Shown: positions 4,296-28,882 of the stretch, piece by piece
How the letters are laid out: each line of letters opens with the position of its first letter
Position numbering within the stretch: the first letter of the stretch is position 1
From: Psammoneis japonica
Taxonomy: Eukaryota
Assembly (NCBI GenBank): GCA_008632985.1
Contig: QPGO01000086.1
Location: 310,001 to 345,247 of the forward strand
Direction: 5' to 3'
Length of the DNA: 35,247 nt
Made by a program: the position numbers and the translations under genes
The notes under the pieces: model-generated
The model's database searches: none
The model's input: the letters and a program-made list of their open reading frames with translations, nothing else
What the model was told of the DNA's origin: nothing

Positions 4296-5677
4296 TCAAT
4301 CTTTGGATGCGGTGTCGGGCGGACTCGTCTCCTGCCGTTGTTTGGAGTGGTTAGGCACGGGAACTATTTGATCATAAAAGCCAGAAATATGCAACCATTC
4401 CTCTGGAGGAATAGCATCATCTCGCCACATCAAATGGTCCGCCAGTGCCCCGCACTCACAAACAGTGCCCGACTCTGCAGCATTTCCACACTGGCAAAAG
4501 CAGATTGGCTTGTAGACACCAGATGCTTGTCTGCTTAGTGACGGAGAGGTCGTGGAGGACCGACGAGACACTGACCTACTACTGCGACCTTCGAAACACC
4601 ATTCTTTCCAGCACGTACCTCGTTTTTGGAATCGTTCATCAGCGCGCCGATTCCTCCGAGGTCCCCGTGGCTGGAACTACTGTCTGTCAGACTCTTGGAA
4701 AGTTTCGCTTTCCCGTTCCTGCCCAAAGCCTCGTCTTCAAACTCATCTTCAAAGGGATTGACAAATGGAGCGCCGAGAAAGCTTGCATCCTTGTCCGTAT
4801 CATCCAACGCCAAGGAGTTTGTCCTAACCAAGTTCTCCTCCTTCTTATTTTTCACCGACGGTGGCATAGCAAACGCAGACGACGGGGGCCAGCCAAATTT
4901 GATTGGTGGGACTGGTTTCAACGGCGGAGTTTCGTCATTGGGTGGTGGTGTGGGTGCCGTGGTTCGTGGGTCGGACACGTCATCGCTTCTGCTGTCGTGT
5001 TTCGCCTTGGCTCTCTTTTTGGGCGGATGCATCGCTTCCTGTCGCTCCTCCTCTTCCGCTTCCCTTTTTGCGGCTTCAGCATTTCGCTTTAGCGCATTGA
5101 CAGCCGCAGCTGAAGCTCTACTGAGAGGCTGGATTGGTCTGACGCCTATCGGTTGATTCAAGACTGGCGTGGCGAGTCTGACTTCAGCTGTTCGAGAACG
5201 CTTCTCATCCATGGCATGGTCCGCTCGAATCTTTGGAGCCCCCTCCCGTAACGCCTGACTCGTCTTTTGCATAGCCTTTTCATCTGATACCTCCACCCAT
5301 CCAACAAGCCCGTTACCATAACCTCCTTTTGCGTCCGGGTCCTTGGCTAAGAATCGACCCGGCGGATCCAAACTCTTGACTCGGTCCACGATTTCCCGTG
5401 AAACTCTCGCTTTCTCCGTCTTGTTGGCTGCAAGGTTGTATTCGTTCTTTCGCTCTCTCACCCAATCACGAAACGTAATGTTGCCCGGATGAGAATTTAT
5501 GCCACCGCCACGTCCGGATAAGACATCGTGATCGTGAGGATTTCGTATAAGAGTCTTGGCTTCCCCGTGCAAGCCCGTAGACACCACGTAAGAAGCCCCG
5601 TTCGCGGATACAAAGTCAGATTTCACTGTTCTCCCTCGCGTCTTGGCGCCGCTTCTGTTTCTTGTCAATGTGCTCAT
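4296..5677 (-). CDS. DUF6824-domain protein; main ORF 4535..5677, probably extended to 4296 by a Cys-rich C-terminal segment
   Basis: Contains 'HDVLSGRGGGINSHPGN..FR..V...K.EY.....EK......I...V....PPGRFL...W.EV..EKAMQKTSQALRE'. A downstream frame encodes CFCQCG...CECG, but the junction (intron or frameshift near 4570-4620) is unresolved. Confidence 0.8.
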
Positions 5678-10530: not shown

Positions 10531-10731
10531 AAAAAAACATGAAGTTGTGTAAGAAGTGCTAGAAGAAAAGTATTTCTCAGCAGCCTTTGCGCAATTGCAG
10601 ATTTGAAGTGTTCGCTGTGCTTGTACAGAAAGGCCGTGCTCTTTTGTAGTACGGTACTTTCTAGCCTGCTGCATCTCAAAACGGAAAACAACAAATCATA
10701 GAGAGGGCGTTTAAAACTCACTCCTCACTCT

Positions 10732-10759
10732 AGAGAGAGAGAGAGAGAGAGAGAGAGAG
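10732..10759. repeat. (AG)n microsatellite preceded by CTCTAG
   Basis: AG dinucleotide run starting within CTCTAGAG (10728). Confidence 0.95.
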
Positions 10760-10769
10760 CTACCAGGCC

Positions 10770-13700
10770 CTCTAGAGAGGTACGTAGATGTTCTAGGAGG
10801 TAAAGCTGAGAAGATCTGATGCAGGCGGTATAGGGCCCTGCTGTAGATGTGCTCTGTGCTTGGCCTCTACTCTAGCTAGCGAGCTCTGTTGGCAGAGAGG
10901 CAGAGGTTCGTTCGTTCGCGTTGCCATGCTTTTAAACTATAGAAATTACGTAAGCCCATGCAGAAATAGAAGCGATGAGGGAAGCAGCAAGAGGTGGCAC
11001 ACGGAGGGAGCTGCAGGAGCAGGAGGAAAGAAGGGGCGGGCAAGGCAGCATGCCGGAGGTTTAAGGAAGGAGCCGGAGCAAAAGGAGAAAGGAGAGAGGA
11101 GAGGAAACAAAGAGTGTGTGCGGCAGAGTGGTGAAAAATGTTGCATCCAAGGGTCTGCACAGCCCATTGAGAGGGAGAAGCAGAATGATGGAGCTGCCAA
11201 AGTGATCAGTGGCAAGTTGATCCCATGCAAAGTTGGCAGCAGGAAGGAGAGCCAAAGGAGAAGTGTGAGCACAGGAGAAGGCGTCAACAAAGGATGCAGT
11301 TGAAGGCTGCAAGAAAGAGTGGTCAGGCCAGGGAGGCTTGGATTGGAAGAAGCCAAGACCACCAAGATGGTTGACAGCAAAAAGAAGAAGAAAGATCCCA
11401 CTGGCATTGAGGGATTGACCAGCAAGGACCTGTCAGAAGAAGAGGCAGAAGGGCCCAAAAACCTCAATCTTGTGCTTGAATGGTGTGCCTCAGTCAAAGT
11501 GGGAGAAGAAGGGAAAGAAGCCAAGACCACCAACATGGCAGACAGCAAAAGGCAGAAGAGAGATCTCACTGGCATTGAGGGATTGAACAGCAAGGGAGCT
11601 GTCAGGAGAGGAAGAGGCAGAAGGGCTTGAAAACTTTGATCTTGCACTCAAATGGTGCTGCGAGTCAGTTAAAATGGGAGAAGAAGGGGTGGGCAGACCA
11701 GGAGGAGGGCAAGGGGGAGTTTTGGAGACAGCGACATCAATGATTGATGGCAACATGTCAATGCTGAGAGGGAGTGGAAATGGAGGCAGGGGGGTGGCAC
11801 CAATGCCAACGTTGGTCGGGCAAAGGAGAGGCCAATGCAGGAGGAGGTTCGCAGGCTCAAGGTGAGCATCATTGGGCACAAGGACAAAGATGGCATCTCA
11901 GATGCTGTTGGAAAGCTTGGACTTGTGACTGTGCTTGCACGCAAAGGGATGATCCCCGAAGGCATCAAGTGTGGTGTGACTGCAAGGACAAGAAGAGTTG
12001 ACAAGGAGAGTTGACAAGGGAAGAGGGGGCACCAGGAGGCAAAGCTTGCATTGAACTGCCACAGCGCACTTGTCAGAGGCAAGGCAAGAGGCAGCAAAGC
12101 AGCGGGAGAGAGAATGAAGTGGGAGGCTGGCAAGGGGATTGGCAGGAGCATGTCAGCAAGGGCAGCAGAGATGATGTGTTGTGCTGATGAGCATGACAGA
12201 GCCTGCGGGCTGGGCCGGGGAGTGTTGCAGACTCAACCAACAACCAAAGCAAAGGGGGAGCTGGGGCAGATGGAGATGAGTCAGAAGAAAGGGTGGAGGC
12301 AAAGCAGCAGAAGAGGGTGCAGAGGCACAGATGAGAGCAAGGGGCCAAGGCTGTTGCCAGAGGGAAGCTGCACTCCTTGAGCGGAGAAGCAGAAAGAGCA
12401 AAGGAGGGAGACAAGGAACAATGGGATGGTGTGGCGGCAGTGGGATCTTGAAGACCAAAGCCACCAAGGGACGCAGGGAGAAAGGCAATGGCCAGAGAGC
12501 AAGGAGGAAGAGCACCGGCATGGGTGGAGGCATGGAGAAGGAAGTGTTGGATGATGGTGAGCAGGAAGTCTTGCAAGGGAGAAGTCCAGAGAAAGGGGTG
12601 GGGCAGGGGCGGGACAGGCTGTCAGAATTAAAGTTGCAAGAGAAATCAGTGCCAAGAAGACAGGCTTTGGAGGAGAGGGAGGAGGAAATGTTGGAGAAGA
12701 GGGAGAGTTTGCTGAGGCTTGAGAGCCAAGAGGCTGGCCAAGGAAGCAAACACTGGAGGCAAGTTTGAGATCACAGGAGGGATCAGCAGAGGGGCTGAGA
12801 AGGAGAGAGCATCCTGCAGGGAGGAGGTCAAGGACCAAGGGAGGGTGGAGAGGGGGTTGGTGCCATTGATGGAGGCAACAATTTTGGTTGTGCTGAGATT
12901 GAGCTTGATGCCACAAAGCAGCAAAGGAAACAAGGAATGATGGGGAGGGAGAGAAAGGCATTGACATTGTCAATGTGAGAAGAACCAGCAGACGATCAAG
13001 AGCAGGAGGCAAGACATTGCTGAATTTCTTGGCTGGTGGGACAAAGGACACAAGAGAGCACCTGGGCATGCAAAGACAGGGCCAAGGGGGCAGCCTTGAG
13101 CAAAGCTTTCTTGCTGTGCAAAAGAGCTCCAAGTGGAGTCAGGTCAGTGACACCAGCACTCATTGGAGTTCTGACAAATGATGGGATCAAAAAACGAAAG
13201 CACAGGACTGAGAGATTCCTTGGAAGAAAGGATGTCATGGCAGGCATCACAAAAGAGATCTCATCAACAACTTGATGAGGTCAAGAAGGAGCAAGGCCTT
13301 GGAAGGAGCAGCCAAAGAGAGGTGGTGTTCAATGTTGGTGTGAGCAGAATGGACAAGAAAGTCAAGACCACCCTTGACACTGACACCAAACTGACCATGG
13401 GGGAGAAGGAACTTGGAACTCAGAGCAAAACAGAGTCACAATGATGGAGCCAGACAGGCAGCAAAGAGCAGCGCCAACACCATTGGGCAGAGCTTGCAGT
13501 CAAGATCAGCAGGATCTTTATGAAGTGTGCCACAAAGCAGCTGGAGGAGAGAAAGGGGTGGGACAGAGGCGCGCAGGGACCAATCCATTGTGAGAACAAG
13601 AAGGAGGAGAACCTGAGGGGATGAAAAGCAAGAATTTTGTTGGGTGGAGCCAGAGGGCGACTCTCAGCAGAGTGCAGAGCACAGGCCTTGAGAAGATTGA

Positions 13701-14400
13701 TGGAGTCAGCAAAAACTTTAGCAGCAGTTGCTGGCTTGCATCTGCCAAGAGCCAAGAGCCAAAAAGGGGCTCAGAGGACAGGAAGATGGGGTCATTGCTG
13801 GGAGAGGAGGAAGAGCAAGCAGAATGTGCTGGATGCATTCTTTGATGTCTGCAGAACACACCTGGGCAACTGTTCATGATGTGCTGCAAGTGTGAAGGAG
13901 GAGACAGGTTCGTAAAATTGCCTCTTTTTCTGTTGATGATCATTTGCATTTTCATTGCTTGACAAATTTACTGTGGAGCTCACACACAGAATTCTGTGGG
14001 CCAAATGTCACACGGAATCCTGCCTGGGACTGGAGCCGGTCTGCCAAGGGTGGAAGCAACAATGTTGGCATTGAGGGTGGTCCAGGGCACAGAGTGCTTG
14101 TGGCATGAAGGTGACCCTCAAGATGGCATGGAGAGAAAGGCAGGTGCACTTGCTGTGGTTGCAATGTCTGCAGGTGTGCAGGTTGGTGGCTTTGAAGAAC
14201 TTGTTGTGAACATGAGAAAGGGAGAAATGGGGGTGCTGCCAGTGAAAATGGCTGAGCACAAGTTTCAGTGGGGATGCCACGGGTGGAAGAAATGTGTGTC
14301 AGAAAAAAAGTTGGCAGATGGAGCGCAACTGGGCAACAGACAGACAAATGCGACAGAAGAGTTGTCCCCATGCTTTTCGTGCGGCATTCAATGCTGACAG
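10770..14400 (-). mobile_element. Decayed non-LTR retrotransposon with restriction-like endonuclease (CRE-clade-like), near full length
   Basis: Motifs occur in the expected order on the minus strand: N-terminal C/H-rich zinc-finger-like region (~14150-14370); RT motifs FAQQESFAQGCPL (~13083-13123), HIDNVNAF (from YIDD, 12954-12977) and GIKLNLSTTKI; GGFGLQDP (~12445-12470); CCHC knuckle CPCSHTTLDAFGDHPFAC...LSNSI*D (~11895-11990); RLE-like EPANLLL...IIDVAV. Many TGA stops and frameshifts. Confidence 0.85.
11346..11689. repeat. Diverged ~170-bp tandem duplication within the retrotransposon 3' region
   Basis: AAGCCAAGACCACCAA...GACAGCAAAA...CTGGCATTGAGGGATTGA...GAAGAGGCAGAAGGGC...TGGGAGAAGAAGGG occurs twice (11346-11513 and 11514-11689). 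Confidence 0.9.
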
Positions 14401-14619
14401 TGGTGTGCTGCTGGCAATGCTGTTGGCTGGTTTTCATGCAACAAAACACACCACATGCATCTTGTGGTGAGCAATGAGCAGGGATGTTTGCCCACATTGA
14501 CCGTGGATGCAGTTTGTGGTTGATTTTGGGGCATTGCTGTTGCTGCTGGGTTTTTGCAATTTTCTGTGCAAATTGCACACAGCAACAATGCAAGATGTTG
14601 ACAACAAGGGCATCATTTT

Positions 14620-17600
14620 GAATGATTGGGCAGAGCTGTCAGACAGACACCACCAGCAATGCATGGTGACAGGTTTTTTTGTGCCAGCAGCAATGTGGCA
14701 ATCTTCAACACAGATGATGAAGGAAACTGCACCCGGAGCAAACATGAGGAAATTGCCAACAGCGCTCAGAAGGCCACCACTCTTAGCCTTTGCAGGGGTG
14801 CACCAAGGTCTTTGCACTGGATGCCAAAATGCTGCATGAGCTGCATGAATTCTCACCCAAAGGTGAAGTGCCGCCACACTTCATCAGCTCCTCCAATGAT
14901 GGCAAGTGGTTTGCCCTCTTGTTTCAGAATTGCAACCTTTGCATTTGCAACAGCAGTGAGCAGAAACTGAGAAAGGCCAGCCTTTGGTCACAGGGCCACA
15001 TCTCTGCCATGACCTTCAACAGCCCTGATTTGATGCTCCTCATCAATCAAGTGGTGCAGGTGCAAGAGTTGATGGGGTTCTTGCCTTCATTGATGGCACA
15101 GCAAACTCTCGGCCCAAGCTGCCTGGAGTCAATGAAGGCTCAGCCCAAGCTGCCTGGAGTCAATGAAGGCTGGTGGCCCTTTGGCATTTGCATCAGCACA
15201 GCGGCCATTTGCCATGGGATGGTGGTGCCGCTGTGCATGATTCTGTCATGACCAGGAGAGTTGGGCAGGATGATGCACTGTGCCATGATTGGCAAAAACA
15301 CCCATGCCCTTGACAGCGCCCAGCACAATGGGGCTTGGCCAAGTCATCAGCAGCCACCAACTTGCTCAATTTGATTCATGGCAGCCAGCACAGAGCTGTG
15401 CTCTCTTCATTGCTGCAATGCTCACAATCAGCTGTTGGAACATCAAGCAGCGCAAATTCTCTTTGCACCCCCACTGGGGCAAAGGAGTGGCCCCAAAGTG
15501 CAACGGAGCATTGATGCAAATCTTTGGTCCAAAGAAAACTTGGCAAAAAAGACACCCCACATCATTGCAAGCAGCTGTGTTTGCAAGCACTTTTGCCTTT
15601 TGCCCTCACATGTGGGCAGCTTCTGCACCTTTGATGGGGCCTCTTCTTCTTGGCATCATGATTCTTGAGGACATCTGATGGGCCAATTGGTTTGCAACAC
15701 TCTGGTGGTTCTTGCCACCTTCCCATTCACCGTCACCACTGTCCCAGTGACAGGTCAAGGCCTGCTCAAAGCAGGCATGCTTGATCTTGGAAAAGTGCAA
15801 TTGACGAATGACAAAAATGTCTTCTGAGACACCAAGCATGGCCATGGGCTGCAACTGGCATTGCCGCTTTCAGTTCTGCCTTTGCCGCCTGCAGAATGAC
15901 AGATGTCCATTGGGACAATGACAACAGCAATGGTGATCGTGCCATGGGGGCCAACTGGTGGATTTCTGGTGGAACAATGGCACTCAGTGATGTGGTGCCA
16001 TTCTCCAGCAACACCATGCACACTGCCAGACCAACCATGATGATTGGATCAGGCAACAGTTTTTCTGCTGCCGAGGTCTTCGTGGGCAACACAGCCCATC
16101 TGGCGGGCAGCTGTCCTTTGCAGGGGAGATGCACATTGACAATGCCGCCACCAACGGGCAAGTCAACACAATGGGCAACACTTGAGTGTTGGTTCATTGA
16201 ACTTTGCATGGCTTTTTGGCACGTTGGACAGCAGGAACATTGGTGCAGGTCAACAACTTGATGCTGCAAATCAGCCTGGGAAGCGGGGCATCAAACCAGA
16301 TCCCTGATGCCTCCAGCCTTGATGTGGGTGGTGGTTTGGGCCTGTTCCTCTTTCAGGCATGGCAGGCACGGCACATCCCAACTTGCCATCAGGTTGCAAC
16401 TCCTTGCTGATGCTGGGAGCCGGCAGCGGCAGCAGCACATTCACTGGTGCACTCAACGACAACAGCATGGAGGTTTTGTTGTCAAAAGGAAGGCCGGCAG
16501 TGGTGCACAAATCCTCACTCCCACTGCAGCCAATGGCTTCACAGGAACAACCACCATTGCCAGCAGTGCACTGCTGCTGGCAAGTTCCATCACCAATGAC
16601 ACGCTGCAAGTCTGTGGCAATGCTCTGTCCAAAGCCTTCATTTGAGTTTCTTCTTGGGCTGAAGTTTGAAATGCTCTGTTGACTCCAAGCTCTGACACCA
16701 TCTTGCTCAACTCCATGATCTGAACAGTTGCAAGTTGGCAGTTGATTTTGGCGCCTCTTGTGTTGCAACATCTCAAGACAAACATTTTGTTGATCTCCTC
16801 ATGCAAAAAGTCATGAAGCTGTTCCAGATCTTGAGAGTTGTGCACTTTGACAAAGGCAGCTTTTCTTTGCATTTGGATGAATTCTGCTCAGGCAATGGCT
16901 GTTGTGGAACATTGTCCAGCACAAGCACACAGCACCCAATGGCAACTGAAGACAGCTTGGATGGAGCAAGCCACCCATTGCTGCAACACTTCAATGGATG
17001 TCAAGAAGACATTTCTTCTTGGAGAGACAACACTTGAAATTTGGCTGTGAACAATTGCACTGTCATCTTCCCATTCCTGTCTTTGCAAACAAGCAAGAGT
17101 TTGCAGGCAGTGCTGTCCCCATCATCACTCCATCGTGCTGCTCTGGAGTTGTGATTGGTTGATTGTTGACAGTTGCTTCTGTTGATCAGCGTGCAACTCA
17201 AACAACCGTGCAAACCATTTTGTCGCCACTCCATCTGCAGAACAATGACAAGTTCTGATCCAGATGCAAGAAGGTGAATGTCATGTAAAATCTCACTGTG
17301 AGTCTGTGCAGATGTGGCGCACTTCCTCCAGGCCATCTGGGGAAGTTGGGTGTGTCCACACAAAGTGAGTGCACTTTTGATTGGTCCACGCCAAAGATGT
17401 TGCAATTTTTTTGGCCATTTTGAATCCTTGCTGGGCATGACATCGGATGAGCAATGGTGGTGCTCGCATGACACAAATTTACACTCAGCATCAACACAGA
17501 AGACAAATCAAAAATTTCAGACAAATTTAGAAATGACAACAACTGCCCAAGGAGAGCCACTTGTCAATGTCAATGCAAAGCCAACTGGGAACACTGTCGC

Positions 17601-18290
17601 CATTTCCATCTGAGAGTTTTTTTGACGAGCTGAATTTTGGAGGTGAGCTCAAGCTGTCCAAGTGGGAAAGACCCCAAGAAGTGGAGGCACTGCAAGTCAG
17701 CTCATCATCGTCCTCACTGTCACACTGCCAACTCTCTTTTTTCTTCAGAACACAAAGTTTGTTTGCAACATTGAGTGTCTTGTCAAAAGCAATCTGTGCT
17801 GGCTTTGAGACCGAGAGGGCAACAAGATCAACATCCAAAAAGTCATGGCCATGCAAGTCTTCACAACTTTCTGGTGGACACAAATCTGGTGCTTTCTCCT
17901 TGCTCCAGTTTTCAACAACATTGCCTGCCTCAGCATCAAGTCACCCCTTGTCAAACAAAAGGACCAAGTGCTGGGGTTGGACTGACACCCCAAATGCTGT
18001 CAAGATTTTTGTCGGCAATTTTGTCAACTGTGGCTTGATGGCATTTTCCCAAGGAATTCACCCGGCGCCCCCTTTTGAAGGAATGAGCAGAACTTTGCAA
18101 AGGCCAATTTGCCTCTGATGAATTTTGGAGAGAAACATGTTCCTGCAGCAGCCCGGGTCCACATCTTCTTCAATTTGTTCCCAACAGAAGTGCGAACTCA
18201 ATTGCAGCATTGTCAACTTGCGCGCAAAATTCTTTTAGCCACTGACCGGCAGTTTTCAAGAATGGGGCGGCATCGGCTCTTCACCATCAT
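14620..18290 (-). pseudogene. Decayed long gene (~1,200 codons) of unrecognised family
   Basis: ORFs 16453..16872 and 15766..16269 share one frame, broken only by TGA codons plausibly derived from CGA. The frame continues to ~15140 and resumes after removing a 31-bp duplication (AWAESLL...AVANAKVAILKQEGKPLAIIGGADEVWRHFTFG). Further protein-like segments run up to ~18290. Confidence 0.6.
15108..15171. repeat. 31-bp tandem duplication
   Basis: CTC(G/A)GCCCAAGCTGCCTGGAGTCAATGAAGG occurs twice. The only difference is CG (15110) versus CA (15141). Confidence 0.9.
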
Positions 18291-18409
18291 TGTTTGTCGG
18301 CTTGTCTGTCGTGTTGTGTGGGAAGTTGGGCAAAAACAATCAGTCGAACCAGTCAAGTTTCTGCGAACACCGATTTGTTGTTGTTGCCACAGACCCATTT
18401 TTTTTTCAT

Positions 18410-19042
18410 GACAACCTGGCTTGCCTGCCCCCGCCCTTGACCCTCATGCCGAGGCACACCATGCAAGCACAAAATGGAAGTTCAACAGAACCCACAAGAC
18501 CCAACATGAAGCAACCCTCACATCCGCCCTTGACAATGCCGGTGTCCACCTCATTTCCTTTGCCATCGACCACCTGGGAGCTCCAGGCTGCTTCGCCCAC
18601 CGCCTTCTTTTTGGTGCCAACCAAGACCTCCCCATCCCTGCTCCACCCACCCCACCTTGGAACACTGAAACCTGTTTTCAACACCCAGCTGCCCACGCCG
18701 CATGCGCCTGTGCCCAACAATCTCCGTCTGCCATCCTCCCTGCGGTCACCGCCACTTGGCAAACCATCTCTGCCGAACGCTTTGGCCTGACCCACCACTC
18801 CTCAACACCATCACAATGGGGTCTACAGAGCCTGAGCCTCGCGATTACCAAATCGCTCGCTGACCAACTAACCCGCTACTCCACCAAACTACAATCGCAA
18901 ACATCAAACCCCAACTCGAAATCCATCCCTTTTCCCACCTGCATGACTCAGTTCCGCCATTGCCCCGCGTCTGTCCCTCCCCCCGCGCCACTAGGTGACG
19001 TTGCACGTGAACTTCTCACGCCGCGCGTACTACACTCTAGAG
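18410..19042 (+). mobile_element. 5'-truncated 3' fragment of a related CRE-like retrotransposon
   Basis: EAHHASTKWKF...LDNAGVHLISFAIDHLGAPGCF is homologous to minus-strand EAHHSSTRLRF...LNASGIFLLLFAVNHLGGLGFF of the first element. Ends in CGTACTACACTCTAGAG. Confidence 0.7.
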
Positions 19043-19245
19043 CCCTAATAGCTACCGTAGCAGGGATAAAAGAAAAACCTTCGACTCTTGCATTGCTTGG
19101 CATTGGGCGTTGGCTTTGTGGAGATCACTTCCGTTGTTGATTCTCTGTTCGTATTTACACTGTATTTTTGAGGCGTTTCGACAGAAATCGTAAAGAAGAA
19201 GGCTAGTTAATTTGCAAGGCTCCTGAAAAGTCCTTCGACCAAGAA

Positions 19246-20388
19246 ATGGTTGCTACCGATGTCCGACCATCGACCAAGGCGAAACTTCTAAACAAGAAGA
19301 CTCTCAACTACGTTGATTATGAGCAAAAGCATCGGGAACATCTATTCACCTTTCCCAAGTTCTTGGAAGATTGGGTTGTGGAGACCTTTCTTCGACGCAA
19401 GGATCGCCGAAACCTAGGAATCTTTTACGTGGGCATGAACATTCTTGCAACCAGTTTGCCAGTTGCCGTTATGTTGTACTACATCGAACAAAACAATCTT
19501 CTACCTGTGAGCCAACAAATCATTCTTGGAGTTGCATACACAGCTATTCATATGAAGTGCTGGGGACGATCTTTCGTGTTGGCATTGCACTTCATTTCGC
19601 ATTGTTCCATTTTCAACTCGACCTACCGTTTCTTGGACCACGTTTTCAAGGCTGGTATTTGCGTCATGTTTGGTATTCCTCCTGGCCTCTACTACCCTCA
19701 CCACATTGGTATGCATCATGCAGTTGACAATGTTGCTCCTCACGACATGAGTTCCACTATGGATTATGATCGCTCCTCCAAGTGGAATCATTTCAAGTAC
19801 ATGTTCCGTTTCTGGTCGTTTGGTAACTTGGAATTGCCATTCCGACTTATGCAAATGAACAAGCCTGGCTTGGCACTGCAATCTCTTACAGGCTCGATCA
19901 CTTTTGTTGCTATTCTTTCCTATGCCTACATGAACAGCCCAATCGCCGCCATGTTCACTTTGATTCTTCCGTGGATCTTTATCAGTTTCGGTTTGATGCA
20001 AGGAAACTTCAAGGAACACATTTTCGTTGATCCCGAGGACTACGGCAACAACTACAAGACTGCCATGAGCTGCATCAACTGTCCTTCCAACTCTCTCAAC
20101 TTCAACACTGGATACCACATTGAACACCACGAAGAGCCTGGTCTACCATGGTATCAACTTCCCGACTTGTTTTTGAAGAATTTGGACAAGCACGCTGCGA
20201 ACGATTCCCTCATCTTTGACGGCATTGGAACAATGGAAGTGGGAACATTGGTTCTCAACGGAAAGTTTGATGAATTGGCCAAGTACTACTTGAATGTTGG
20301 TCAACCAAAGCGAACCCACGAAGAATTGGTGGCCGAATTCAAACGCCGATTACTTCCTGTGGATCTCTCCAAAGCCGGCAAGGAGTAG
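19246..20388 (+). CDS. Membrane-bound fatty acid desaturase family protein (380 aa, intronless)
   Basis: Three histidine boxes (HFISH, HHIGMHH, YHIEHH) with intervening hydrophobic segments. Intact ORF with a pyrimidine-ending codon preference. Confidence 0.9.
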   Translation: MVATDVRPSTKAKLLNKKTLNYVDYEQKHREHLFTFPKFLEDWVVETFLRRKDRRNLGIFYVGMNILATSLPVAVMLYYIEQNNLLPVSQQIILGVAYTAIHMKCWGRSFVLALHFISHCSIFNSTYRFLDHVFKAGICVMFGIPPGLYYPHHIGMHHAVDNVAPHDMSSTMDYDRSSKWNHFKYMFRFWSFGNLELPFRLMQMNKPGLALQSLTGSITFVAILSYAYMNSPIAAMFTLILPWIFISFGLMQGNFKEHIFVDPEDYGNNYKTAMSCINCPSNSLNFNTGYHIEHHEEPGLPWYQLPDLFLKNLDKHAANDSLIFDGIGTMEVGTLVLNGKFDELAKYYLNVGQPKRTHEELVAEFKRRLLPVDLSKAGKE

Positions 20389-20661
20389 GGCCCCTAAATA
20401 ATCCTGTTTCTTCTACTTATTCATGCGCTACAAATCTGCCCATTCCATTTTGAATACAAGGCCTTCGACGCCTTTGCCCTACCTGCCCATTTTAGCATGA
20501 CGAGTCAATATTTTTTGGAGCTGCCATGAATCCGTGTCATTCCTTTCTGAGAAATGGCCTCATTGCAGCTTCAATAACTCTTCTAGCTACAACCATGTCA
20601 AATACAGTGTCAGGATAGCGGAGTAGTATTTATGTCACCAGTGGCAGCAACAGCAGTTTTA

Positions 20662-23220
20662 CTAGAATGTTACATCGCAAACTTCGTTTGCAACAGCTTC
20701 GTTGCTGAGGTAGTCCTCCATCATTTCTTCCAGGGCGTGCAATCGTGAACGTTTCAAGTCTGCGTCATTCGCGAGGTGACTTTGTTCCATGGTAACCACG
20801 GCAATGGCCTTTTCGACAAATCGCAGGGCCAATTTGACGCCTGCACCATTCTCAAACAAGTTGTTCATGGCATCTGCCATGGCATTGACTTTGTCCTCGT
20901 CCAGGGTCGAGGACATGTTCTCAGTTGCACTGAAACTATCCCGCAGCAGCTGTGCCATTGATTCAGATCCAACTGGCTGGGGAACTGCAACTGTTTGGAC
21001 AAAGCACTCATTCAAAACAGAGCAGGCAGCATTGGACATTGATGTGGCAGCAATGACTCAAAAGTGTTTTTCAGTCACCTTGGACTGACTGACTGCCTTG
21101 GCTGCAGTGGATGTTGCAGGTGGAGTTTGCAGCAGTGCCCGCAGAGTGGAAATCATGGCGCCACTGCAGCCATTGGGTCCAGATCCCGCACAAACTTGGT
21201 CAATGTCCTTCAGAACTGGAAGAGACCCGGGCATTTCTCAGGCTTCCACAAACTTTTCTGCCAGAGCAGCAGCCTGTCCAGCCCCCATCGACCAGCAAGT
21301 CCAGTGCTGTTGCAAAGCAAACAAATTCTGATGCTCCAGTTGAGAGGAAGCTTTGGCAGCCAGCAGTCTGGGTGGCAAGCGCAGTGGCTCCACACCTGCT
21401 TCCAGTGCCACCACCAACTGGTGGCATTGACTCTGCCAATTCCAAAGTGAAAGATCTCAAAGGCAGTGCAACAAATTGATCAAGATCACAGAGGACTCGC
21501 TTCATGGAAGAAGAGCAAAGGCCAGTGCCATGAGGACATCTTGCCTTCAAAACTTCATCTTGCTTCCCAAGGACTGGCCGAACTTCTCTCAAGGCATCAT
21601 TGAGGTCTTTGACTGCAAGAACACCATTGGCACCATCATCATCCTGCTGCTCTTTGGCGCGTGCCAAGGCAAAGCTTGCAGTGCTCCATGCCAAGCCTGC
21701 AAGTTCAGCTCCAGTGCAGTGCTCTGTGATGACAGGCAATCCCTTCTTGCCAAGGTCTTCAAGACATGCTTGGGCATCTTTGCGGATGCCACCTGCCTCC
21801 TTCATTGACCTTGCATGAGCTCAAAGAATGTCTCTTCTGCCAGCATCATCAGGCAATTCCACCCAATGATGCACTTCCAGTCAACCAGGATGCAAGAATG
21901 CTGGGTCCAGCAGCTCACAGGTTGATTCACACAAGTCCAACAATGAGGACATTGTCAGCCTCTTGGACTCCATCCATCTTGGCCAACAGTTGGTTGGCAA
22001 TGCTGCCATGCACTCCAGCCATGTTGCTTGTCACACTGCCTCTCTTTCCAGTGATGGCATCCATTTCATCAAGAACAACAACATGTGAAGAGCAGACATG
22101 ATGTTGCCAACTTGTTTGCATTCATCAAGAATTTTGGGGCAGTTGACAATTTGTTCTTGGGTGCCCAACAAGGTTGCCAACTCTCTTGCCAACAAGGTCA
22201 CTCCACAACCAGGATGCCCACTCAGAAGAATGCCTTGGACATGGTTGATGCCCAGTCATTTGGCAGCTTCAGGGTTGGCACCACTGGCAAGAACATGGTG
22301 GATGACAGAGTCCAGCTGGACATCCAAGCCACCAACCTTGTCAAAGGTTGAGTTCAATCATTCTCCCAAGGGTTTCTTTTCTGAGGCATTCTCCCCTTCA
22401 GCTTCATTGCTGGCTTCTCTGTTTGGTCTGTTTGTCTTGCACTCCTCTTCCTCTTTGGCTGGCTCAGGCGCAATGACCAAGAACTCCAAAATGTGATTCT
22501 CAGACAAGGTGTGCAGTGGGCCTCCCACACATTTGATGTGGGCTTTGCTGTCTGTCAAAAGGTCTCCTCTTCTTCATCTTTTTTTTTTCAATGCAGTGTG
22601 CACAGACCTCCCAAGAAGCTTGCATTGCCACCACCACAAACATCTTTTTTCAAAGTCTTTTGACAGAACCCTGCATTCTGACCAGGCCCTTGGAGCAACC
22701 ACACTTCCACGATGGAGTCAAGGGCTTGACTGCTGACCAACTTCCTGTGGGCACTGATGCTGCCATTGACCATGATCTTGAGAGAGGATGTGCAAAAAGG
22801 CACCCCAATCCTGGCCTCCAGCCAGACAAAATCAAGGAGGTTGTGGGGCACCGGCATCTGCTTTGGCCAAGAGTTGGTTGCAGGCCCTGCCTTGGACTCG
22901 GGCTTGATGTTGACAAGGTCCATGAGATGCGCCACAGCATCATTGTCCCCCCAAGTCTGTGGTTGATGGAGCATCTGGCTCCACAGCAGTCTTGAAACTT
23001 GCCTGATGCAAAGCTGCTGGTGTTTCTGTTGAATCCAGGGCAACACGGTCGGATGGAGTTGAGCCCAAGAAGGTGATGGCGGAGGGACCCACCCAAGCTT
23101 CAATGGATTGCAACAAAGCCAGAAGCAGAAATGGAGAGTGGTCAAGAGACAAGGCTGATTCACTGCAAAAGAGCTCTTGCAAACACTCTCCATGTCGTGG
23201 AACGCTGCGAAAGCTTTCAA
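20662..23220 (-). pseudogene. NSF/Sec18-like vesicle-fusing AAA+ ATPase pseudogene
   Basis: Reads GGLDVQLDSVIHHVLAS...AAK*LGINHVQGILLSGHPGCGVTLLARELA (decayed Walker A), HVVVLDEMDAITGKRGS...SIANQLLAKMDGVQEADNVLIVG (Walker B region) and EHCTGAELAGL. The C-terminal ORF 20662..21039 is still open. The 5' limit is approximate. Confidence 0.85.
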
Positions 23221-23529
23221 TTTCCGAAAGTGGGTTGCTGGGGCATCGCTTGGGTGCAGATTCGTTCCACACCATCGTCAACTCAGTGTTGCTTTTTGGC
23301 CTTGTCCAGAATGACATTTTTTTGTCTGTTTGTGTGTGCCTTTGTTGGAGGAGTCAATGCCAGATGAAATTTTATCAGAGCCTTCATTTGCACTCGTGGT
23401 TGATTGCTCATCTGCGTGTTTTGACATTGCAGGCATGCCTTGTGTTTGTGCCCCCAGTGAGACATGACTCAGATGTGATTTCCCAACCATGTTCATGCAT
23501 TCCATGTTCTGTTTGCTTGAAAAAGTCTG
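20939..23529. other. Hypermutated domain 2 (TpA/CpG depleted), fading out to ~24030
   Basis: Manual count: one TA (23373, in TTTTA) in ~2.6 kb, and four more between 23530 and 24030. Confidence 0.95.
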
Positions 23530-24354
23530 TAGAGACAGGATGAACATGCCCACAACACCACATGAAAAAAAGGAAAAACGAGTTTGGCCGGCACAGCCGC
23601 TGTTGTTCTAGAAAGCTTGGCCGCTGGAGACCAAAAAATCATCAGAGAGAGAAACAATCTAAGACCAACACTTGAAATGCTGGCACACATCAAAGGAGGA
23701 CACTTCTGAGGGGAAGAGCTGTGTGAGAGCATCAGCAACAATCGACTGTTGTTGTGAAAGGCTGACAACCGAAAGTTTTGCGGCAAATTCAAAGCTTCTC
23801 AATCTTTTGAAACTGACGAACGAGAGACAAAAGTGCCGTCTGATTTTTTCATCCATCAATGACCCTTGACAAGCCATCAAGAAGGTGCAGCAAAGAGCTG
23901 CTGCGCCCGGGAAGGGCCGCTGGTAACGCGTGTCAATGCCATGTCGTTTTGTGGTGGGTGATGGCTTTCCGGTCTGCGAAGAGTGAGATCGCGAGTGTGG
24001 GTCCGAAATGATTTGCGGAAGTTTGTCCAATAAGTGATCTATAAATATCCGGATACATCATTCATTGATCTAACGGTCGAAAAATTTCTTTTATTAAGTA
24101 CACGTGGAAAGCACGCCAGATCACTTAAGAACTACGACGTCAAGTTTCTCCGTCCTAAATAAATAAAAATTCGATATGAAAATTTCATTTTGTCTGCCGG
24201 TATTTTTGGCGGGAAAACTCCGCTCGCGATCCAAGTACGATGCATGCGGGACGCGACATGAAGCGGAAGAATTCACAAACGTGCCGGAGTTGTTTCCCGG
24301 CAATCCCGTCGTGTGGGGGTGATAACTGCGAAGTAGTAGCCATCACCACCCCAC

Positions 24355-27300
24355 ATGACTGAGACCATGATGGCTGGAGGAGTGGCGGTAGAAGACGCCG
24401 GGCCTCGGCAACTTTTCCCCGAGGCAACAACCATGACGCAGAACAACATTGGCTCGCCGGCGTCAACTTCGACCGCAACACCGCAAACTGACAACCGTGA
24501 AGACACAGCAGGCGAGGATCCGCCTACCAAGCCACTCGTAGAACCATCAACAGCTCTGCAGCAGCCATCCATTCTGGAAACCATTGGGCCCTCTGCTACG
24601 GCGCGGCCTCCAGTTGCTGCGGTCGACTCCAGAGGCTCAACCAGAACGTCTAGTAAATCAGAGCGAAGGAGGAGGCGTAAGAAAGCAAATTCAGACTTGG
24701 GCCCCATGCTGACGGAAGAAGAGCAGTATGCTTCTAATGAGTTTGGGAAGAAAGCAGTAAGCGAACGTCATCATTCTCGGCGCCACCATCACCACCATCG
24801 ACGAACGACCAGTGAAGATTATCGTTACTACGGACATCCTCAGGAAGATCCATATTATGCGCAACAGATGCAGCAGCGCTACCCCATCCCTCCTCAACTG
24901 TATCCTCCAGCCACGTATCAGGAGTATATGTTACAGCAGCAGCAACAGCAGCAGCAACAGCAGCAGCAGGTAATGTATCAGAGTCCACCAGCGCACCAAC
25001 GTATGCGTGGGCATCACCGTGTTCAGAGTGATCCCAACGTACCGGTTCCAGATATGGTAGGATATTGGAATGGTCAGTCACCCGCCCTTTCTCCTGCGGG
25101 CAATCCCCTCATTCCTATTTTAAATCAAGATGGGATGGCCGTAGACGCATCACCTATGGAGAATGGTGGTTCTCGTCGTATCCGCAACCAACAGTTCTCT
25201 AGCAACCGGGTACGATCCTCTTCTGCTTCAGGACAAATCCAGCAGCAGTACGGCTCCATGCAGCAGCCAGTTCCGCCTCCAACATCCGCCGGAATTACTC
25301 CCGAAAAGAGCTCCCCTCGACAGCAATATTCTCCTCGCAGTCAGTTTTCTCCTCGCGGCGAAATCATGTCGTTGGCCAATGCCTTTTCGCCGCAGCGACC
25401 AACAAGTGGGAGCCGAAGGACACCCCCACAGTCTCCTGTACAAACCTACCAACAGGTTTCGCCTCACACAACCATGGGCATTCCGCCGGGCTTGTCTCCG
25501 GCAACCATGACTCCTCCTCCGGCATCGGTCCTTCGCAAAGGAAGTAATAGTGGTCCGTCATCGTATCCCGGCGGTGGTGAGGATCCTCGTGGTGTGACGT
25601 TTTCTCCTCACACACCCGTAGCTTGGGATACTTTGTGGAAGAGGGTGGTGGTGTCCCTGAGGACTTGATTCAGCCAACAAGGAATCATCATCGTCCGGTA
25701 GGCACAAGCGATCGGCGCAATCCATCCGAAAGATGAATATGCGACAGCAGTCGGCACAAATCTACATGGAAGAATCCAAGGGTACGCAACAGCCCAAGGC
25801 TTGCAGGGATGTCTTGTTTGCAGTCTTGTTTGTCTTGCACTTGATTGGCATGGTGTACTTGGGTTCCATGTATGGTCCCGACGCGTTTAGCAGAAGGAAC
25901 GGTTCAATTGATGACGACGATGATCCTTTACACGTGACGGTGGCTTATGCAAATGTCATTTATGTGGCTTGTCTCTGCGGGGCCTTTGCAATTGCCGTGT
26001 CGTCGCTCGTCTTGTGGCTCATGGCAGTGTTTGCTCGTCGTGTGGTTCAAGTGGCGCTCATTCTGACGATTGGTTTGAGCTTTTGCTGGGGAACCATTGG
26101 GATTGGTCTGAGCCCAAAGAATATTGTTCCCATTACCGGAATCATTGCCCTTGCACTGAGTGTTGGTTATACCTTTGTCGTTTGGGACCGTATCCCCTTT
26201 GCCACGGCGAATCTGCTGACGGCGCTCAGTGCTATCCGAGAAAACTTTGGAACCGTGTTAATTTCATTTTTCTTTCAAGGATTGGCGTTGGGTTGGTCCA
26301 TTTACTACACCTTTGTTGTTGTGGGTGTATACGACGCCATTGAAACTGGCGATCTTGTCATTGGTAAACAGGCTACAATATTTCTGTACACCATGCTTGC
26401 CATTTCTTACTATTGGACATTTCATGTGCTATTGGTAAGAATATTGTTTACGATTGTTGTGTCTCAGTACGGAGTTTCGATTCATCTAATCCTCTATTTT
26501 CACGGTTTGCTGTTCAGAATATTGTCCAAGTTTCGGTGGCCGGGACGATTGGTTGTTGGTGGTTTAAGGAACATGCTCGATTTTGCGACGGAACTCCTAC
26601 AAGGAATGTCTTGTATTCAATTTCCTTGTACTTTGGATCCATTTGCTTTGGAAGCCTTCTTGTCGGACCCGTCCGTCTCATTCGTCAGTTTTCGCTCTTT
26701 TTCCGTCCCAACCAAGTGGATGACACGGCTCTCATGTGCTTGCACGAGTGCCTGTCGTGTATTCAAAATTGCATTGCTTCCGTGGCGGACAATTTGGCGG
26801 CATATTTTAATCCGTTTGCTTTTACCTATGTTGGATTGTATGGATATAGCTTGCTTGATGCCGGTCACCATGCCACGAAGCTATTTGAGAAGCGAGGCTG
26901 GGCGCAGATTGTGGCGGACGACTTGATCCCAAACATTTTACTCATGGTTAGTCTGGTAATTGGAGGCTGCACCGGGGTCTTTGGGTCTTTGGTGGAAGAT
27001 TTGGAAGGATTTAACTTTATCAATGGCGACAGAGAAGCTTTGCAGGGAGCGACGGCAAAGGCGTTTGCGTAAGTTCTAATTTCCAGTGGAAGCTCGTTTG
27101 CCTTGTTTGTTTCCTTGCTCATTTCTTATTTGTATCGCACACGATAGAATTGGCGTGCTTGTCGGGCTGGTATTGACCAGTGTCCTGTTTGGAATCATTA
27201 GTAGCTCGGTCAATGCCGTTCTCGTTTGTTTTGCGGGAAGCCCGGTGGAATTCGAAAGGTACCATCCTGAACTAAGCCACGAAATGAGAGCTGCGTGGAG

Positions 27301-27394
27301 AGAGGTATGGCCAGGTTGTATGAACGTTGTAGATATCAAGGTGGCATATGCTCAGCAGAATGAAGTAGAAACTGAGACGACTCCCCTTGTTTAA
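24355..27394 (+). CDS. Choline transporter-like (CTL/SLC44/Pns1) membrane protein with a long low-complexity N-terminus
   Basis: Motifs 'CRDVLFAVLF', 'WDRIPFATANL', 'FGSICFGSLLV', 'YFNPFAFTYVGLYG' and 'LFEKRGW...DDLI'. Introns 26435-26517 and 27069-27147 restore the frame. The link from ORF 24355..25668 to 25733 requires frameshifts near 25620-25670. Confidence 0.85.
24934..24969 (+). repeat. CAG/CAA poly-glutamine repeat
   Basis: Encodes Q12 in the N-terminal region of the CTL-like ORF. Confidence 0.9.
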
Positions 27395-28882
27395 GCGACA
27401 AAAGGATGGACAGCTCAAGGAGGATCGGTTCAGCTTCTACTTTCCTTCATATTACTGTATATTTGTTTCATAATTGATCTTTAATGGACTTTGTAATGTG
27501 TAGCTCTGCGCTGCTTCCTCTGGTTTTTGTGCTTGAATTTTAAACAGAAGTGCATTGACAGGATCAAGCGGAATCCATAGAGTCGGCATTCTTCTGTTCC
27601 TCCCGAACAACAAGTGAATACGACGAATCGATAAAAATATGCAGGCGATCAGCGCCGAAATAGTCCAGCACATATCAACGACAACACGCTGTAACGAATG
27701 CCCCGTCGCGGACCCCATGTTTAAAGTGTGCGATGACATTGCAAGCGCTACGACCGCCATCGCAGTCCACATTGACGTACGCACGGAATGAATAACACGC
27801 CAATAAAGATTGCTATGTCGTACTTTAAGTATTTCTACATCTACTGTAAAGGTTCAAAGCGTGTTTCAAATATTTGAGACACACCAATATCAAAAGTTGA
27901 TATAAATTGGTAGCGTAGGGTAACATTGCCTCAAGAGCGTCATCAAAAGATAGCGCTCAAGCTTTTACGTATCTTCAGAGTGACAAAATATCACAAAAAA
28001 AAAAGTAAAAGGGGGGACGTACTACGGAGACAACAAGAAAACTTGCGAGTCAACCGTGTTCTAAATCAACACTCCCTACGAGTGAAGACTTACCGTATCA
28101 TGCCACTGATACGACAGAACCCCAAACCTGTGTTCCGTCAACAGTATGATCTGCTCGGCGAGCTTTTGCTGCTTCGCAGACGAACACCGCTGTCTGTTTC
28201 AACAGCCGTGACCTGACGGGTCAAGCGAACAGGCAACTTCCTACGCTCAAAGACACGAGAGTGACATGGACTCAAGGCCGGAGAGACGCATTCGATTTGC
28301 CCCGACCTCTGGACTTAACTGGCAACACCTACGCCACCTAGAGACAACACGCCATCAAGCATAATGAGTTGTGGAATGCCAAACAAATGCAAGGTCTCAA
28401 TCCAGAGGAAGGGCGAGCCATCCTTGGCGATAACGGCATTCAGGCTTGGCAAACAACAACACATCGTGCGAGACGACGAGTGTGAGAGAGCGCAAAGTCG
28501 AAGAGATTTGTTGTGTCGTGACCGTTTCTAAATTTCTCAATCACTATCTTTTTTGTGTACCTAAGTAGAATTAATACCATTATATCGTATGTAGAAAATT
28601 GGTAGGAACTTGGTACTCTCTATCGGATTACCAATTCCGCCGTAGGCTCTACGGTAGCAAAAAAAAACTGCCGCCGATGACCGATGACGTCTTCTTTGTC
28701 GAGGTCCGAGCTCCAGAATTAGCAGCACACCGCAGACGATACCGCATAACCTGAAACCCGCCCGCAACCCGGAACATAGGGCCCTACACAATGATCCTTC
28801 GCTTCATGTTGTCTGTGTGAATAAAAACTGAGCTATGCTTCTCGTGATTATTTAGGTGAACAAGAATTTGTACCGAATCAGC

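What the first reader, a model, noticed from the sequence alone, without database searches (positions are those of the whole stretch)
11062..23374. Surviving TpA sites lie almost only in TTTA/TAAA: sequence specificity of the mutator
Seen: survivor contexts are TTTAAG, GTTAAAA, ATTAAAG, TTTATG, TTTAGC, CGTAAAA, TTTACT, CTTAGC, TGTAAAA, TTTACA, TTTAGA, TTTAGC and TTTATC. So 12 of 13 are TTTA or its reverse complement TAAA, and the last is still TTA. Inference: a TpA abutting an A/T-tract is protected on both strands. This suggests an enzyme, or an A-tract DNA-shape or nucleosome effect, with flanking-base preference rather than drift or selection.
Basis: partly seen in the sequence, partly recalled or inferred. 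Interest (0 to 1): 0.75.

Follow-up and report, generated by a model that had tools for sequence, protein, structure and literature searches.

The report
Flanking-base fingerprint of diatom TpA mutator
In this diatom-like genome a process rewrites almost every TA step in dead transposons to TG or CA, and the few TAs left are those whose neighbouring bases slow it on both strands, which gives a sequence fingerprint for finding the unknown enzyme.

Summary
Real but overstated. The two TA-erased transposon blocks (10970-18820, 20940-23520) hold 13 TA, 12 in TTTA/TAAA, against 142 of 1012 in flanks. The quoted range holds 95 TA (22 TTTA/TAAA) because it spans an untouched desaturase gene. In 38 other genome stretches, 383 of 792 survivors (48%) are TTTA/TAAA and 262 (33%) TCTA/TAGA, together 75% against 26% in normal DNA. 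The protected word is therefore TYTA/TARA, not an A-tract as such. Transposon copies show TA becoming TG/CA after insertion, on both strands. Loss rates fit per-position preferences: +1 C/T about 5 times faster than A, -2 T 0.41. That fit predicts survival of 119 hexamers elsewhere (rho -0.69). An A-tract term adds nothing there (p 0.72). In the oldest blocks TAAA does outlast TAGA (64% share), which the fit underpredicts. Several survivors are shared with homologous copies, so they are not sequencing errors. The closest known case is TpA hypermutation in Bigelowiella (2026 preprint; no flank context in its main text). The enzyme is unidentified. This scan has already noted the mutator and its TAY and TAAA/TAGA bias on other pieces of this genome.

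The parts
10970..18820 (.). TA-erased block 1: decayed transposon DNA with 12 TA in 7.85 kb, CpG strongly reduced, CA/TG raised
   Evidence: blocks 1+2 together: TA 0.03x, CG 0.23x, CA 1.62x, TG 1.41x of flank density
20940..23520 (.). TA-erased block 2 (1 TA, at 23373); a weaker tail runs to about 23920
   Evidence: homologous copies on C99 and C335 at 87-91%
18824..20937 (.).
   Evidence: 0.55% divergent from the C99 copy against 3.2-3.3% in the blocks
19246..20388 (+). fatty-acid desaturase gene, 380 aa, spared by the mutator
   Evidence: PF00487 E 8e-23
11347..13496 (-). relic of a reverse-transcriptase element (non-LTR type by my reading of the relative's frame)
   Evidence: 64-71% DNA identity to L113:6541-8674, which lies in a 1253-aa minus-strand frame with RVT_1, E 1e-9; the window's own frames hit no Pfam family (0 of 31)
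13823..14045 (.). repeat shared with loci of a Gypsy-like family; holds survivors 13913 and 13969
   Evidence: 75-86% to L058, L077, L062, L037; of 14 TA in the TA-rich relative L058, the window reads TG 9, CA 3, TA 1, gap 1
14326..14655 (.). dispersed repeat (about 40 places found) lying upstream of the protease/RT frames of a Gypsy-like element in L032; no TA left
   Evidence: of 23 TA in relative L010 the window reads CA 11, TG 11, GG 1
11062..11063 (.). surviving TA, context TT-TA-AG
   Evidence: predicted rate at the 3rd percentile of normal TA sites; no homolog covers it
11670..11671 (.). surviving TA, GT-TA-AA
   Evidence: TA also in two distant relatives, L113 and L132; 2nd percentile
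12629..12630 (.). surviving TA, AT-TA-AA
   Evidence: 4th percentile
13519..13520 (.). surviving TA, TT-TA-TG
   Evidence: 35th percentile, the least expected survivor
13719..13720 (.). surviving TA, TT-TA-GC
   Evidence: 5th percentile
13913..13914 (.). surviving TA, CG-TA-AA; old site
   Evidence: TA in C99, L058 and L077; CA in L062, L115 and L052
13969..13970 (.). surviving TA, TT-TA-CT; old site
   Evidence: TA in C99; CA or TG at this position in six relatives
14784..14785 (.). surviving TA, CT-TA-GC, the one site outside TTTA/TAAA
   Evidence: TG in C99
17286..17287 (.). surviving TA, TG-TA-AA
   Evidence: TG in C99
17480..17481 (.). surviving TA, TT-TA-CA
   Evidence: TA in C99
17528..17529 (.). 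surviving TA, TT-TA-GA
   Evidence: beside an indel in the C99 alignment; 1st percentile
18236..18237 (.). surviving TA, TT-TA-GC
   Evidence: TA in C99
23373..23374 (.). surviving TA, TT-TA-TC
   Evidence: falls in a gap of the C99 alignment

Best explanation
A nuclear mutator acts on integrated transposon DNA and converts A:T to G:C at TpA steps only. It can hit either strand, so a TA becomes TG or CA (shown). Its rate depends on the two bases on each side in a roughly multiplicative way. Written on the strand of the changed A, it is fast with C/T at +1, slower with G, slowest with A. It is slowed further by A at +2, by T at -2 and by C/G/T at -1 (fitted from copies). A TA survives only if both strands are poor targets. 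T-T-T-A/T-A-A-A and T-C-T-A/T-A-G-A meet that condition best, because the same two flanking bases slow both strands. With longer exposure, survivors sort into the slowest words, so old CpG-poor blocks like this one end up mostly TTTA/TAAA (trend shown, size only partly explained). Inferred, not shown: the agent is an enzyme guided to silenced chromatin. My odds are about 45% for a TadA/ADAT-type adenine deaminase working on DNA, 25% for a thymine-directed lesion or mis-repair, 15% for an error-prone polymerase and 15% for something else. The sequence data cannot tell whether the A or its partner T is attacked.
For: Direction and timing: against a Copia copy with identical LTRs (L132), copy L133 has 89 TA>TG/CA changes at 104 TA but only 7 CpG changes at 157 CG in its converted zone. 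8 of the 9 differences between L133's two LTRs are TA>CA/TG, so they arose after insertion. A>G per strand context: TA 89 of 208, AA 5 of 242, CA 3 of 351, GA 4 of 351. The same site ends as TG in some Gypsy copies and CA in others. Context: in three young copy pairs TYTA/TARA sites were kept in 15 of 39 cases, other sites in 17 of 251 (odds ratio 8.6, p 7e-7). Competing-risk fit on 1224 site-by-copy observations at 357 sites, rates relative to A with site-bootstrap 95% intervals: +1 C 4.6 (3.4-8.3), +1 T 5.0 (3.5-12), +1 G 1.75 (1.1-2.8), +2 C/G/T 1.4-1.7, -2 T 0.41 (0.24-0.56), -1 C/G/T 0.52-0.60. The 5' terms are needed on top of the 3' terms (p 7e-5). Independent check: fitted rates against survival of 119 hexamers in 38 other stretches give Spearman -0.69, and all 13 window survivors fall below the median rate, 9 of them at or below the 11th percentile. 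Age trend: TTTA/TAAA share 136 of 385 in CpG-rich, 69 of 130 in middle and 178 of 277 in CpG-poor blocks (per-block Spearman -0.75 over 27 blocks); a pure-loss simulation gives the same direction.
Against: The pure-loss model underpredicts the oldest blocks: 36-46% TTTA/TAAA at 7.5% survival against 64% seen, and 47-58% at 3% survival against 12 of 13 here. TAGA survival falls threefold from CpG-rich to CpG-poor blocks while TAAA does not change, so a further term is missing (a stronger TAAA effect, an A-run effect, or biased gain of new TA). Only 10 TTTA/TAAA observations lie in the young pairs, so the test of a tract term is weak. The families differ: +1 G is 2.7, 0.8 and 3.0 in the three. 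Gypsy copies are related and only about 80% like the reference. I chose the converted zones after seeing the data. CpG density is my proxy for age, not a dated measure. No dedicated enzyme was found.
Confidence: 0.8

Rival explanations
1. A-tract DNA shape or nucleosome placement shields a TA next to a run of A or T. It would be the main cause of the survivor bias.
For: In CpG-poor blocks TAAAA is 98 per 1175 CA/TG contexts against 106 per 2191 for TAAA+C/G/T (odds ratio 1.7, p 2e-4), and TAAA outlasts TAGA. +3 A/T is somewhat favoured among survivors. A weak spacing peak near 152 bp among survivors (3.5x mean power, untested).
Against: TAGA/TCTA is protected as well as or better than TAAA in CpG-rich blocks. 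AATA/TATT is depleted (30 of 792). The survival index levels off at 76-79 for A-runs of three or more. Tract term p 0.72 and +/-3 terms p 0.77 in the copy-based fit. No TAAAA excess in CpG-rich blocks (p 0.54). No 10-11 bp period.
Confidence: 0.12
2. The survivors are not old protected sites but new TAs or homopolymer-adjacent sequencing or assembly errors.
For: In the C99 copy four block TAs differ from the window by a transversion (at window 16654, 16668, 17422, 21310), two of them G/T next to a T-run; these look like gains or slippage. 6 of the 13 window sites could not be checked against any homolog.
Against: 4 window sites are TA in C99 and 2 are TG there; 11670 and 13913 are TA in distant relatives, and 13969 faces CA/TG in six relatives. 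Sites known to be old TA in intact copies are retained with the same context bias. Uniform gain at steady state would give only 25-32% TTTA/TAAA. TCTA/TAGA is no homopolymer context.
Confidence: 0.05
3. The mutator is an error-prone polymerase of the Pol eta type (dGTP opposite T in WA) that fills repair gaps in methylated repeats; the context bias is the polymerase's.
For: Pol eta makes WA>WG changes during gap filling after mismatch repair of uracil (PMC11507097, passages). The blocks also lose CpG, which could supply such gaps.
Against: AA is almost untouched (5 of 242 vs TA 89 of 208). TA loss runs far ahead of CpG loss (7 of 157 CG), and many TA-poor Copia loci keep about 200 CG per 3.7 kb. 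No clear same-strand runs of changes (runs z -1.1 and -0.9).
Confidence: 0.12
4. Selection or drift keeps these particular TAs, for example as TTTA/TAAA signals.
For: None found.
Against: The same bias appears in 26 of 27 blocks with 8 or more TA and in recently converted copies, and it follows position-specific rates on both strands. The window's block frames match no Pfam family (0 of 31).
Confidence: 0.02

Closest known systems
TpA hypermutation of integrated NCLDV and virophage DNA in Bigelowiella natans (Mettrop et al., bioRxiv 10.64898/2026.01.13.699255; parts 1-3 of 5 read plus a term search; supplements not available)
   Same: A:T>G:C transitions confined to TpA, giving TpG and CpA; localised to foreign or transposon-derived DNA; clusters of TpA-poor, CpA/TpG-rich windows; enzyme unknown, ADAT2 proposed.
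   Different: Here a diatom-like genome, LTR and non-LTR retrotransposons as targets and near-complete erasure (1-5 TA per kb); depleted DNA made up 204 of 371 kb segmented in my sample. A +/-2 flank preference is measured here. The preprint's main text has no occurrence of 'flanking', 'context', 'trinucleotide', 'logo' or 'diatom'; its Table S2 may allow the same analysis.
Repeat-induced point mutation (RIP) of filamentous fungi
   Same: Regional, dinucleotide-specific hypermutation of repeats on both strands with a flank preference (RIP as a repeat-directed C>T defence: abstract start of PMC7296669; the CpA preference and TpA gain are recalled).
   Different: Opposite direction: RIP makes TpA from CpA/TpG, whereas this removes TpA and makes CpA/TpG. 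Dependence on repeat pairing or the sexual cycle was not tested.
TadA / TadA-derived adenine base editors
   Same: A>G at TA on DNA (ABE8e off-targets at TA sites, PMC13225742, passages). Natural TadA edits A34 in U33-A34-C35, and a 3' U enhanced TadA8.20 editing 1.5-2 fold (PMC12027372, passages), in line with +1 C/T here.
   Different: TadA8.20 also edited UAG at the highest rate in a fixed reporter, whereas +1 G is slow here. TA exclusivity is stricter here (about 20-50 fold per A). No natural genomic-DNA activity of the TadA/ADAT2-like genes in this genome is shown.
ADAR and fungal (Fusarium) A-to-I RNA editing
   Same: 5' U preference.
   Different: They favour +1 G (ADAR) or +1 A/G (Fusarium) (PMC4817773, passages), the reverse of the +1 C/T preference here. 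They act on RNA, while the LTR-LTR differences show change after insertion.

Membership tests
Bigelowiella-type TpA hypermutation | A:T>G:C transitions almost only at TpA | tested here: met
   TA 89 of 208 vs AA 5 of 242, CA 3 of 351, GA 4 of 351 in L133; 33 of 82 vs 3, 1, 1 in L100
Bigelowiella-type TpA hypermutation | both strands hit (TpG and CpA products) | tested here: met
   TG/CA outcomes 72/40, 59/57 and 432/435 in three families
Bigelowiella-type TpA hypermutation | confined to foreign or transposon-derived regions, host genes spared | tested here: met
   blocks match RT-element relics; the desaturase island between them keeps its TA
Bigelowiella-type TpA hypermutation | acts on integrated DNA | tested here: met
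   8 of 9 LTR-LTR differences in L133 are TA>CA/TG
Bigelowiella-type TpA hypermutation | about 1000-fold raised per-generation rate, on in only some lines | not testable with these tools
   needs a mutation-accumulation experiment
Bigelowiella-type TpA hypermutation | same flanking preference and same enzyme | not testable with these tools
   bioRxiv supplements (Table S2) closed; enzyme unknown in both organisms
RIP | C:G>T:A at CpA/TpG, raising TpA | tested here: not met
   TA 0.03x, CA 1.62x, TG 1.41x of flank
RIP | triggered by repeat pairing before meiosis, needs a RID-type methyltransferase | not tested
   no search made; TA-rich multi-copy Copia elements at 98-99% identity exist, so being repeated is not sufficient at once
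TadA/ADAT-type DNA adenine deamination | 5' T required, 3' pyrimidine tolerated or favoured | tested here: met
   against passages
TadA/ADAT-type DNA adenine deamination | a deaminase in the genome able to act on nuclear DNA | tested here: inconclusive
   PF14437 finds 5 places of 6 candidates. C38 is TadA-like (133 bits, below the 150 cut-off), C26 and C79 match TadA weakly, C41 is dCTP/dCMP-deaminase-like. PF02137 gives 4 matches at 2 loci. No expansion; activity untested
TadA/ADAT-type DNA adenine deamination | inosine intermediate in DNA | not testable with these tools
   needs chemistry
ADAR / fungal A-to-I RNA editing | +1 purine preference and action on RNA | tested here: not met
   +1 C/T 4.6-5.0 vs G 1.75 and A 1; change after insertion; reference preferences
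Pol eta WA mutagenesis (SBS9-like) | A>G at both TA and AA | tested here: not met
   AA 5 of 242 and 3 of 158, near the CA/GA background
TET/JBP thymine oxidation | TET/JBP gene present | tested here: inconclusive
   PF12851 had no match in G000 but none in the controls either

The most novel reading that the evidence does not exclude
Diatoms carry an undescribed genome-defence enzyme that edits A:T to G:C in silenced transposon DNA after insertion, on both strands. Its target is best written 5'-(A/C/G)-A-T-A*-(C/T)-(C/G), and it nearly ignores T-T-T-A/T-A-A-A. The +1 pyrimidine preference sets it apart from ADAR and fungal editing, and TA exclusivity sets it apart from Pol eta. It would be a natural genomic-DNA adenine editor (or T-directed equivalent), possibly shared with chlorarachniophytes, and the hexamer profile measured here would identify it in vitro.
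Probability: 0.45. Interest if true: 0.85.

Novelty: new variant of a known kind. Interest (0 to 1): 0.6.

Why it matters
The TpA mutator is in print, as far as my searches reach, only in one 2026 preprint on an unrelated alga, with no enzyme and no flank context in its main text. A measured four-position, strand-resolved preference turns 'some mutator' into a testable signature. It can be compared with the 231 de novo mutations of Bigelowiella to ask whether the two share one system, used to screen candidate deaminases or polymerases in vitro, and used to rank transposon copies by exposure. It already argues against ADAR-like, fungal-editing-like and Pol eta-like agents. A natural DNA adenine editor would also interest the base-editing field.

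Tried and rejected
A-tract term and +/-3 positions in the rate fit: no gain. 10-11 bp periodicity of survivors: none (power 0.05-0.65 of the mean). Same-strand clustering of changes: not significant. WA (Pol eta-like) spectrum: rejected. Uniform gain at steady state as the source of the bias: gives too little TTTA/TAAA. The first rate fit used an unconverted zone of copy L100; I discarded it and refitted. Pfam on 31 stop-to-stop frames of 130 aa or more in and around the blocks: no hits. TET/JBP search: uninformative. Deaminase searches gave only ordinary-looking genes. Fourteen further full-length copies of the young Copia family were located but their DNA was not obtained, so that family contributes only L133 and the 3' part of L100 to the fit. 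Literature searches for TpA loss in diatom repeats found nothing relevant.
Full report
Setting. The window is G000:C87:310001-345247 of a 91-Mb, 597-contig assembly. Its genes include two DUF6824 proteins, a MatE fragment, a desaturase, a choline-transporter-like and a GNAT protein. I read it as a diatom from DUF6824 and gene style; that label is recalled and agrees with earlier scan notes, and no call names the organism.

Observation. TA counts per 500 bases fall from 10-44 to 0-6 at about 10970-18820 and 20940-23900; CG also falls and CA/TG rise. The blocks 10970-18820 and 20940-23520 (10,430 bases) hold 13 TA, 12 of them TTTA/TAAA. The TA-normal parts hold 1012 TA, 142 of them TTTA/TAAA (p 6.6e-10). 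Three more survivors just beyond the range are TAGA or TCTA types.

Larger sample. I asked for 40 ten-kb stretches at arbitrary places and received 38. A two-state segmentation on TA density gave 37 depleted segments (203,873 bases, 792 TA) and 167,121 normal bases (6775 TA); segments under 800 bases and 30 bases at each edge were dropped. TTTA/TAAA: 383 of 792 vs 884 of 6775. TCTA/TAGA: 262 vs 943. Either: 593 (75%) vs 1767 (26%). YTAR: 441 (56%) vs 17%. AATA/TATT: 30 vs 1116. Positional enrichment after TA is strongest at +2 A (2.2x) and +1 A/G (1.7x, 1.3x), weak at +3 and near 1 beyond.

Age. Using CpG density as a proxy, the TTTA/TAAA share rises from 136 of 385 (CpG above 30 per kb) through 69 of 130 to 178 of 277 (below 16 per kb), while TA density falls from 5.1 to 2.9 per kb. 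The per-block Spearman is -0.75 over the 27 blocks with at least 8 TA. The window's blocks have 13 CG and 1.2 TA per kb, so they belong to the far end; 12 of 13 at 64% has p 0.026.

Are survivors real and old? A homologous region on C99 covers window 13740-18417 and 19082-34328; whether it is an allele or a duplicate is not known. Of the 8 survivors in its span, 4 are TA there, 2 TG, and 2 fall at indels. 11670 and 13913 are TA in distant relatives, and 13969 faces CA or TG in six. 11062, 12629, 13519 and 13719 are unchecked. The blocks differ from C99 by 3.2-3.3% against 0.55% in the island and 0.96% in the right flank, with 68 CA/TG swaps in the blocks and none in the flank. Four C99 TAs differ by transversions and may be new, so gain contributes.

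Direction and timing from copies. A Copia element with identical 348-base LTRs and 282 TA (L132) was compared with copy L133 (97%). In positions 348-2800, 89 changes are TA>TG/CA (104 TA), 7 are CG>TG/CA (157 CG) and 29 are other. Its 3' half is almost untouched. Eight of nine differences between L133's own LTRs are TA>CA/TG, so the change came after insertion and not at the RNA or reverse-transcription step. In 22 TA-poor Gypsy-like loci compared with one TA-rich copy, most TA read TG or CA and the same site goes both ways in different copies.

Rates by context. Direct count in three pairs (L133, L100 3200-4300, L108): TTTA/TAAA kept 3 of 10, TCTA/TAGA 12 of 29, others 17 of 251. A competing-risk model with one exposure per copy was fitted to 1224 observations at 357 sites (132 + 127 Copia, 98 Gypsy), each site weighted once. 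Dropped beforehand: TATA contexts, non-transition outcomes, sites with gaps, and Gypsy observations with changed flanks or not shared by at least half of four TA-rich copies. 22 of 29 Gypsy loci served as targets; four served as the filter and three overlap other loci. Zones were chosen after seeing the conversions. Relative to A, on the strand of the changed A: -2 C 0.68, G 0.68, T 0.41; -1 C 0.54, G 0.60, T 0.52; +1 C 4.6, G 1.75, T 5.0; +2 C 1.5, G 1.7, T 1.4. Both sides are needed (p 7e-5 and 2e-14); tract terms (p 0.72) and +/-3 (p 0.77) are not. -2 T is below 1 in all three families (0.20, 0.59, 0.44); +1 G varies (2.7, 0.8, 3.0). The fit was made without the 38 stretches and predicts their hexamer survival (rho -0.69, 119 hexamers). 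The slowest predicted are TTTAAA and TCTAAA, which survive at 54 per 280 and 52 per 340 CA/TG contexts; the ten fastest have 4 survivors in all.

What the model misses. Pure loss predicts 36-46% TTTA/TAAA at 7.5% survival and 47-58% at 3%, below the 64% and 12 of 13 seen. From CpG-rich to CpG-poor blocks the TAGA index falls threefold while TAAA is unchanged, and TAAAA exceeds the other TAAAN by 1.7 only in CpG-poor blocks. Possible reasons are a stronger TAAA effect than ten observations can show, a real A-run effect at long times, C>T drift of TCTA into TTTA, or run-extension gains. I cannot separate these.

Mechanism. Shown: TA-only transitions, both strands, after insertion, regional, ahead of CpG decay, with flank-dependent rates. 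Inferred: an enzyme targeted to silenced chromatin. AA is spared, unlike Pol eta's WA (PMC11507097, passages). +1 C/T is the reverse of ADAR and Fusarium editing (PMC4817773, passages). It fits the U-A-C substrate of TadA, although engineered TadA also edits UAG well (PMC12027372, passages; PMC13225742, passages). The same numbers read on the other strand give R-T*-A, so a thymine-directed lesion is not excluded. The genome holds a TadA-like gene (C38), weaker TadA/ADAT-like matches (C26, C79), a dCMP-deaminase-like gene (C41, C317) and two A_deamin loci; none is tied to the process.

What is known. The Bigelowiella preprint (10.64898/2026.01.13.699255; parts 1-3 of 5 read, and a term search) reports TpA-only A:T>G:C hypermutation of integrated viral DNA and proposes ADAT2. 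It gives no flank context in the main text; its supplements were not available and may bear on this. Searches (listings only) found no report for diatoms; the library lacks most subscription papers. Earlier notes of this scan describe the same mutator and YTAR, TAY and TAAA/TAGA biases on other pieces of this genome. They are not counted as evidence. The -2 T effect, the test of the tract term and the age sorting are not in the lines of those notes that I saw.

Verdict. The survivors mark the slow end of a real flanking-base preference of a TpA-directed mutator, TYTA/TARA rather than A-tracts, with an unexplained extra persistence of TAAA in old blocks. New variant of a known kind; interest 0.6.

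Noticed in passing
window 18824-20937: A TA-normal island with an intact desaturase gene sits between two erased blocks, with edges sharp to about 100-200 bases; it is 0.55% divergent from the C99 copy against 3.2-3.3% for the blocks.
   Followed up: partly
L133 (G000:C44:55533-62112) and table: In the young Copia family the 5' part is converted first. L133 loses TA over about 0-3300 and keeps it beyond 4000; L100, L096, L093 and L090 have most changes before 4450; the C362 and C21 copies are 96% and 95% like the reference at the 5' end but 99% and 98% further 3'. This suggests targeting set by the element, not only spread from the flank.
   Followed up: partly
L083-L111 (Copia RT loci): Many Copia loci with long open frames have 26-66 TA but about 200 CG per 3.7 kb, so TA erasure happens without CpG loss and, by removing TAA/TAG, leaves frames open.
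   Followed up: partly
L134:5023-5349 (G000:C160:151023-151349): A 327-base element with 44-base terminal inverted repeats is inserted in a Copia copy; 27 other full-length places at 94-98%. MITE-like.
   Followed up: no
window 21502-31366 vs G000:C335 and C99: A third copy on C335 differs from the window by 0.1% in the gene flank but 3.7% in block 2, and is 98.9% like C99 overall: three haplotype-like copies, with divergence concentrated in the erased block.
   Followed up: no
window 10700-10970 and 18990-19060: Both erased stretches are bordered by short TA-dense patches rich in CTAG/TCTAGA; the first includes a GA microsatellite at about 10733-10760.
   Followed up: no
window 11347-11513 and 11515-11688: Tandem duplication of about 170 bases, 83% alike, inside the RT-element relic.
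   Followed up: no
38 sampled stretches: Survivor spacing has its highest power near 152 bases (3.5 times the mean); significance not tested.
   Followed up: no
L140 (G000:C79:87801-89400): A deaminase-fold domain is in one frame with what I read from memory as a 2-oxoglutarate dioxygenase N-terminal part; only the deaminase part was scanned.
   Followed up: no
window 1842-2939 and 4535-5677 (minus strand): Two neighbouring DUF6824 genes, one with two domain copies.
   Followed up: no
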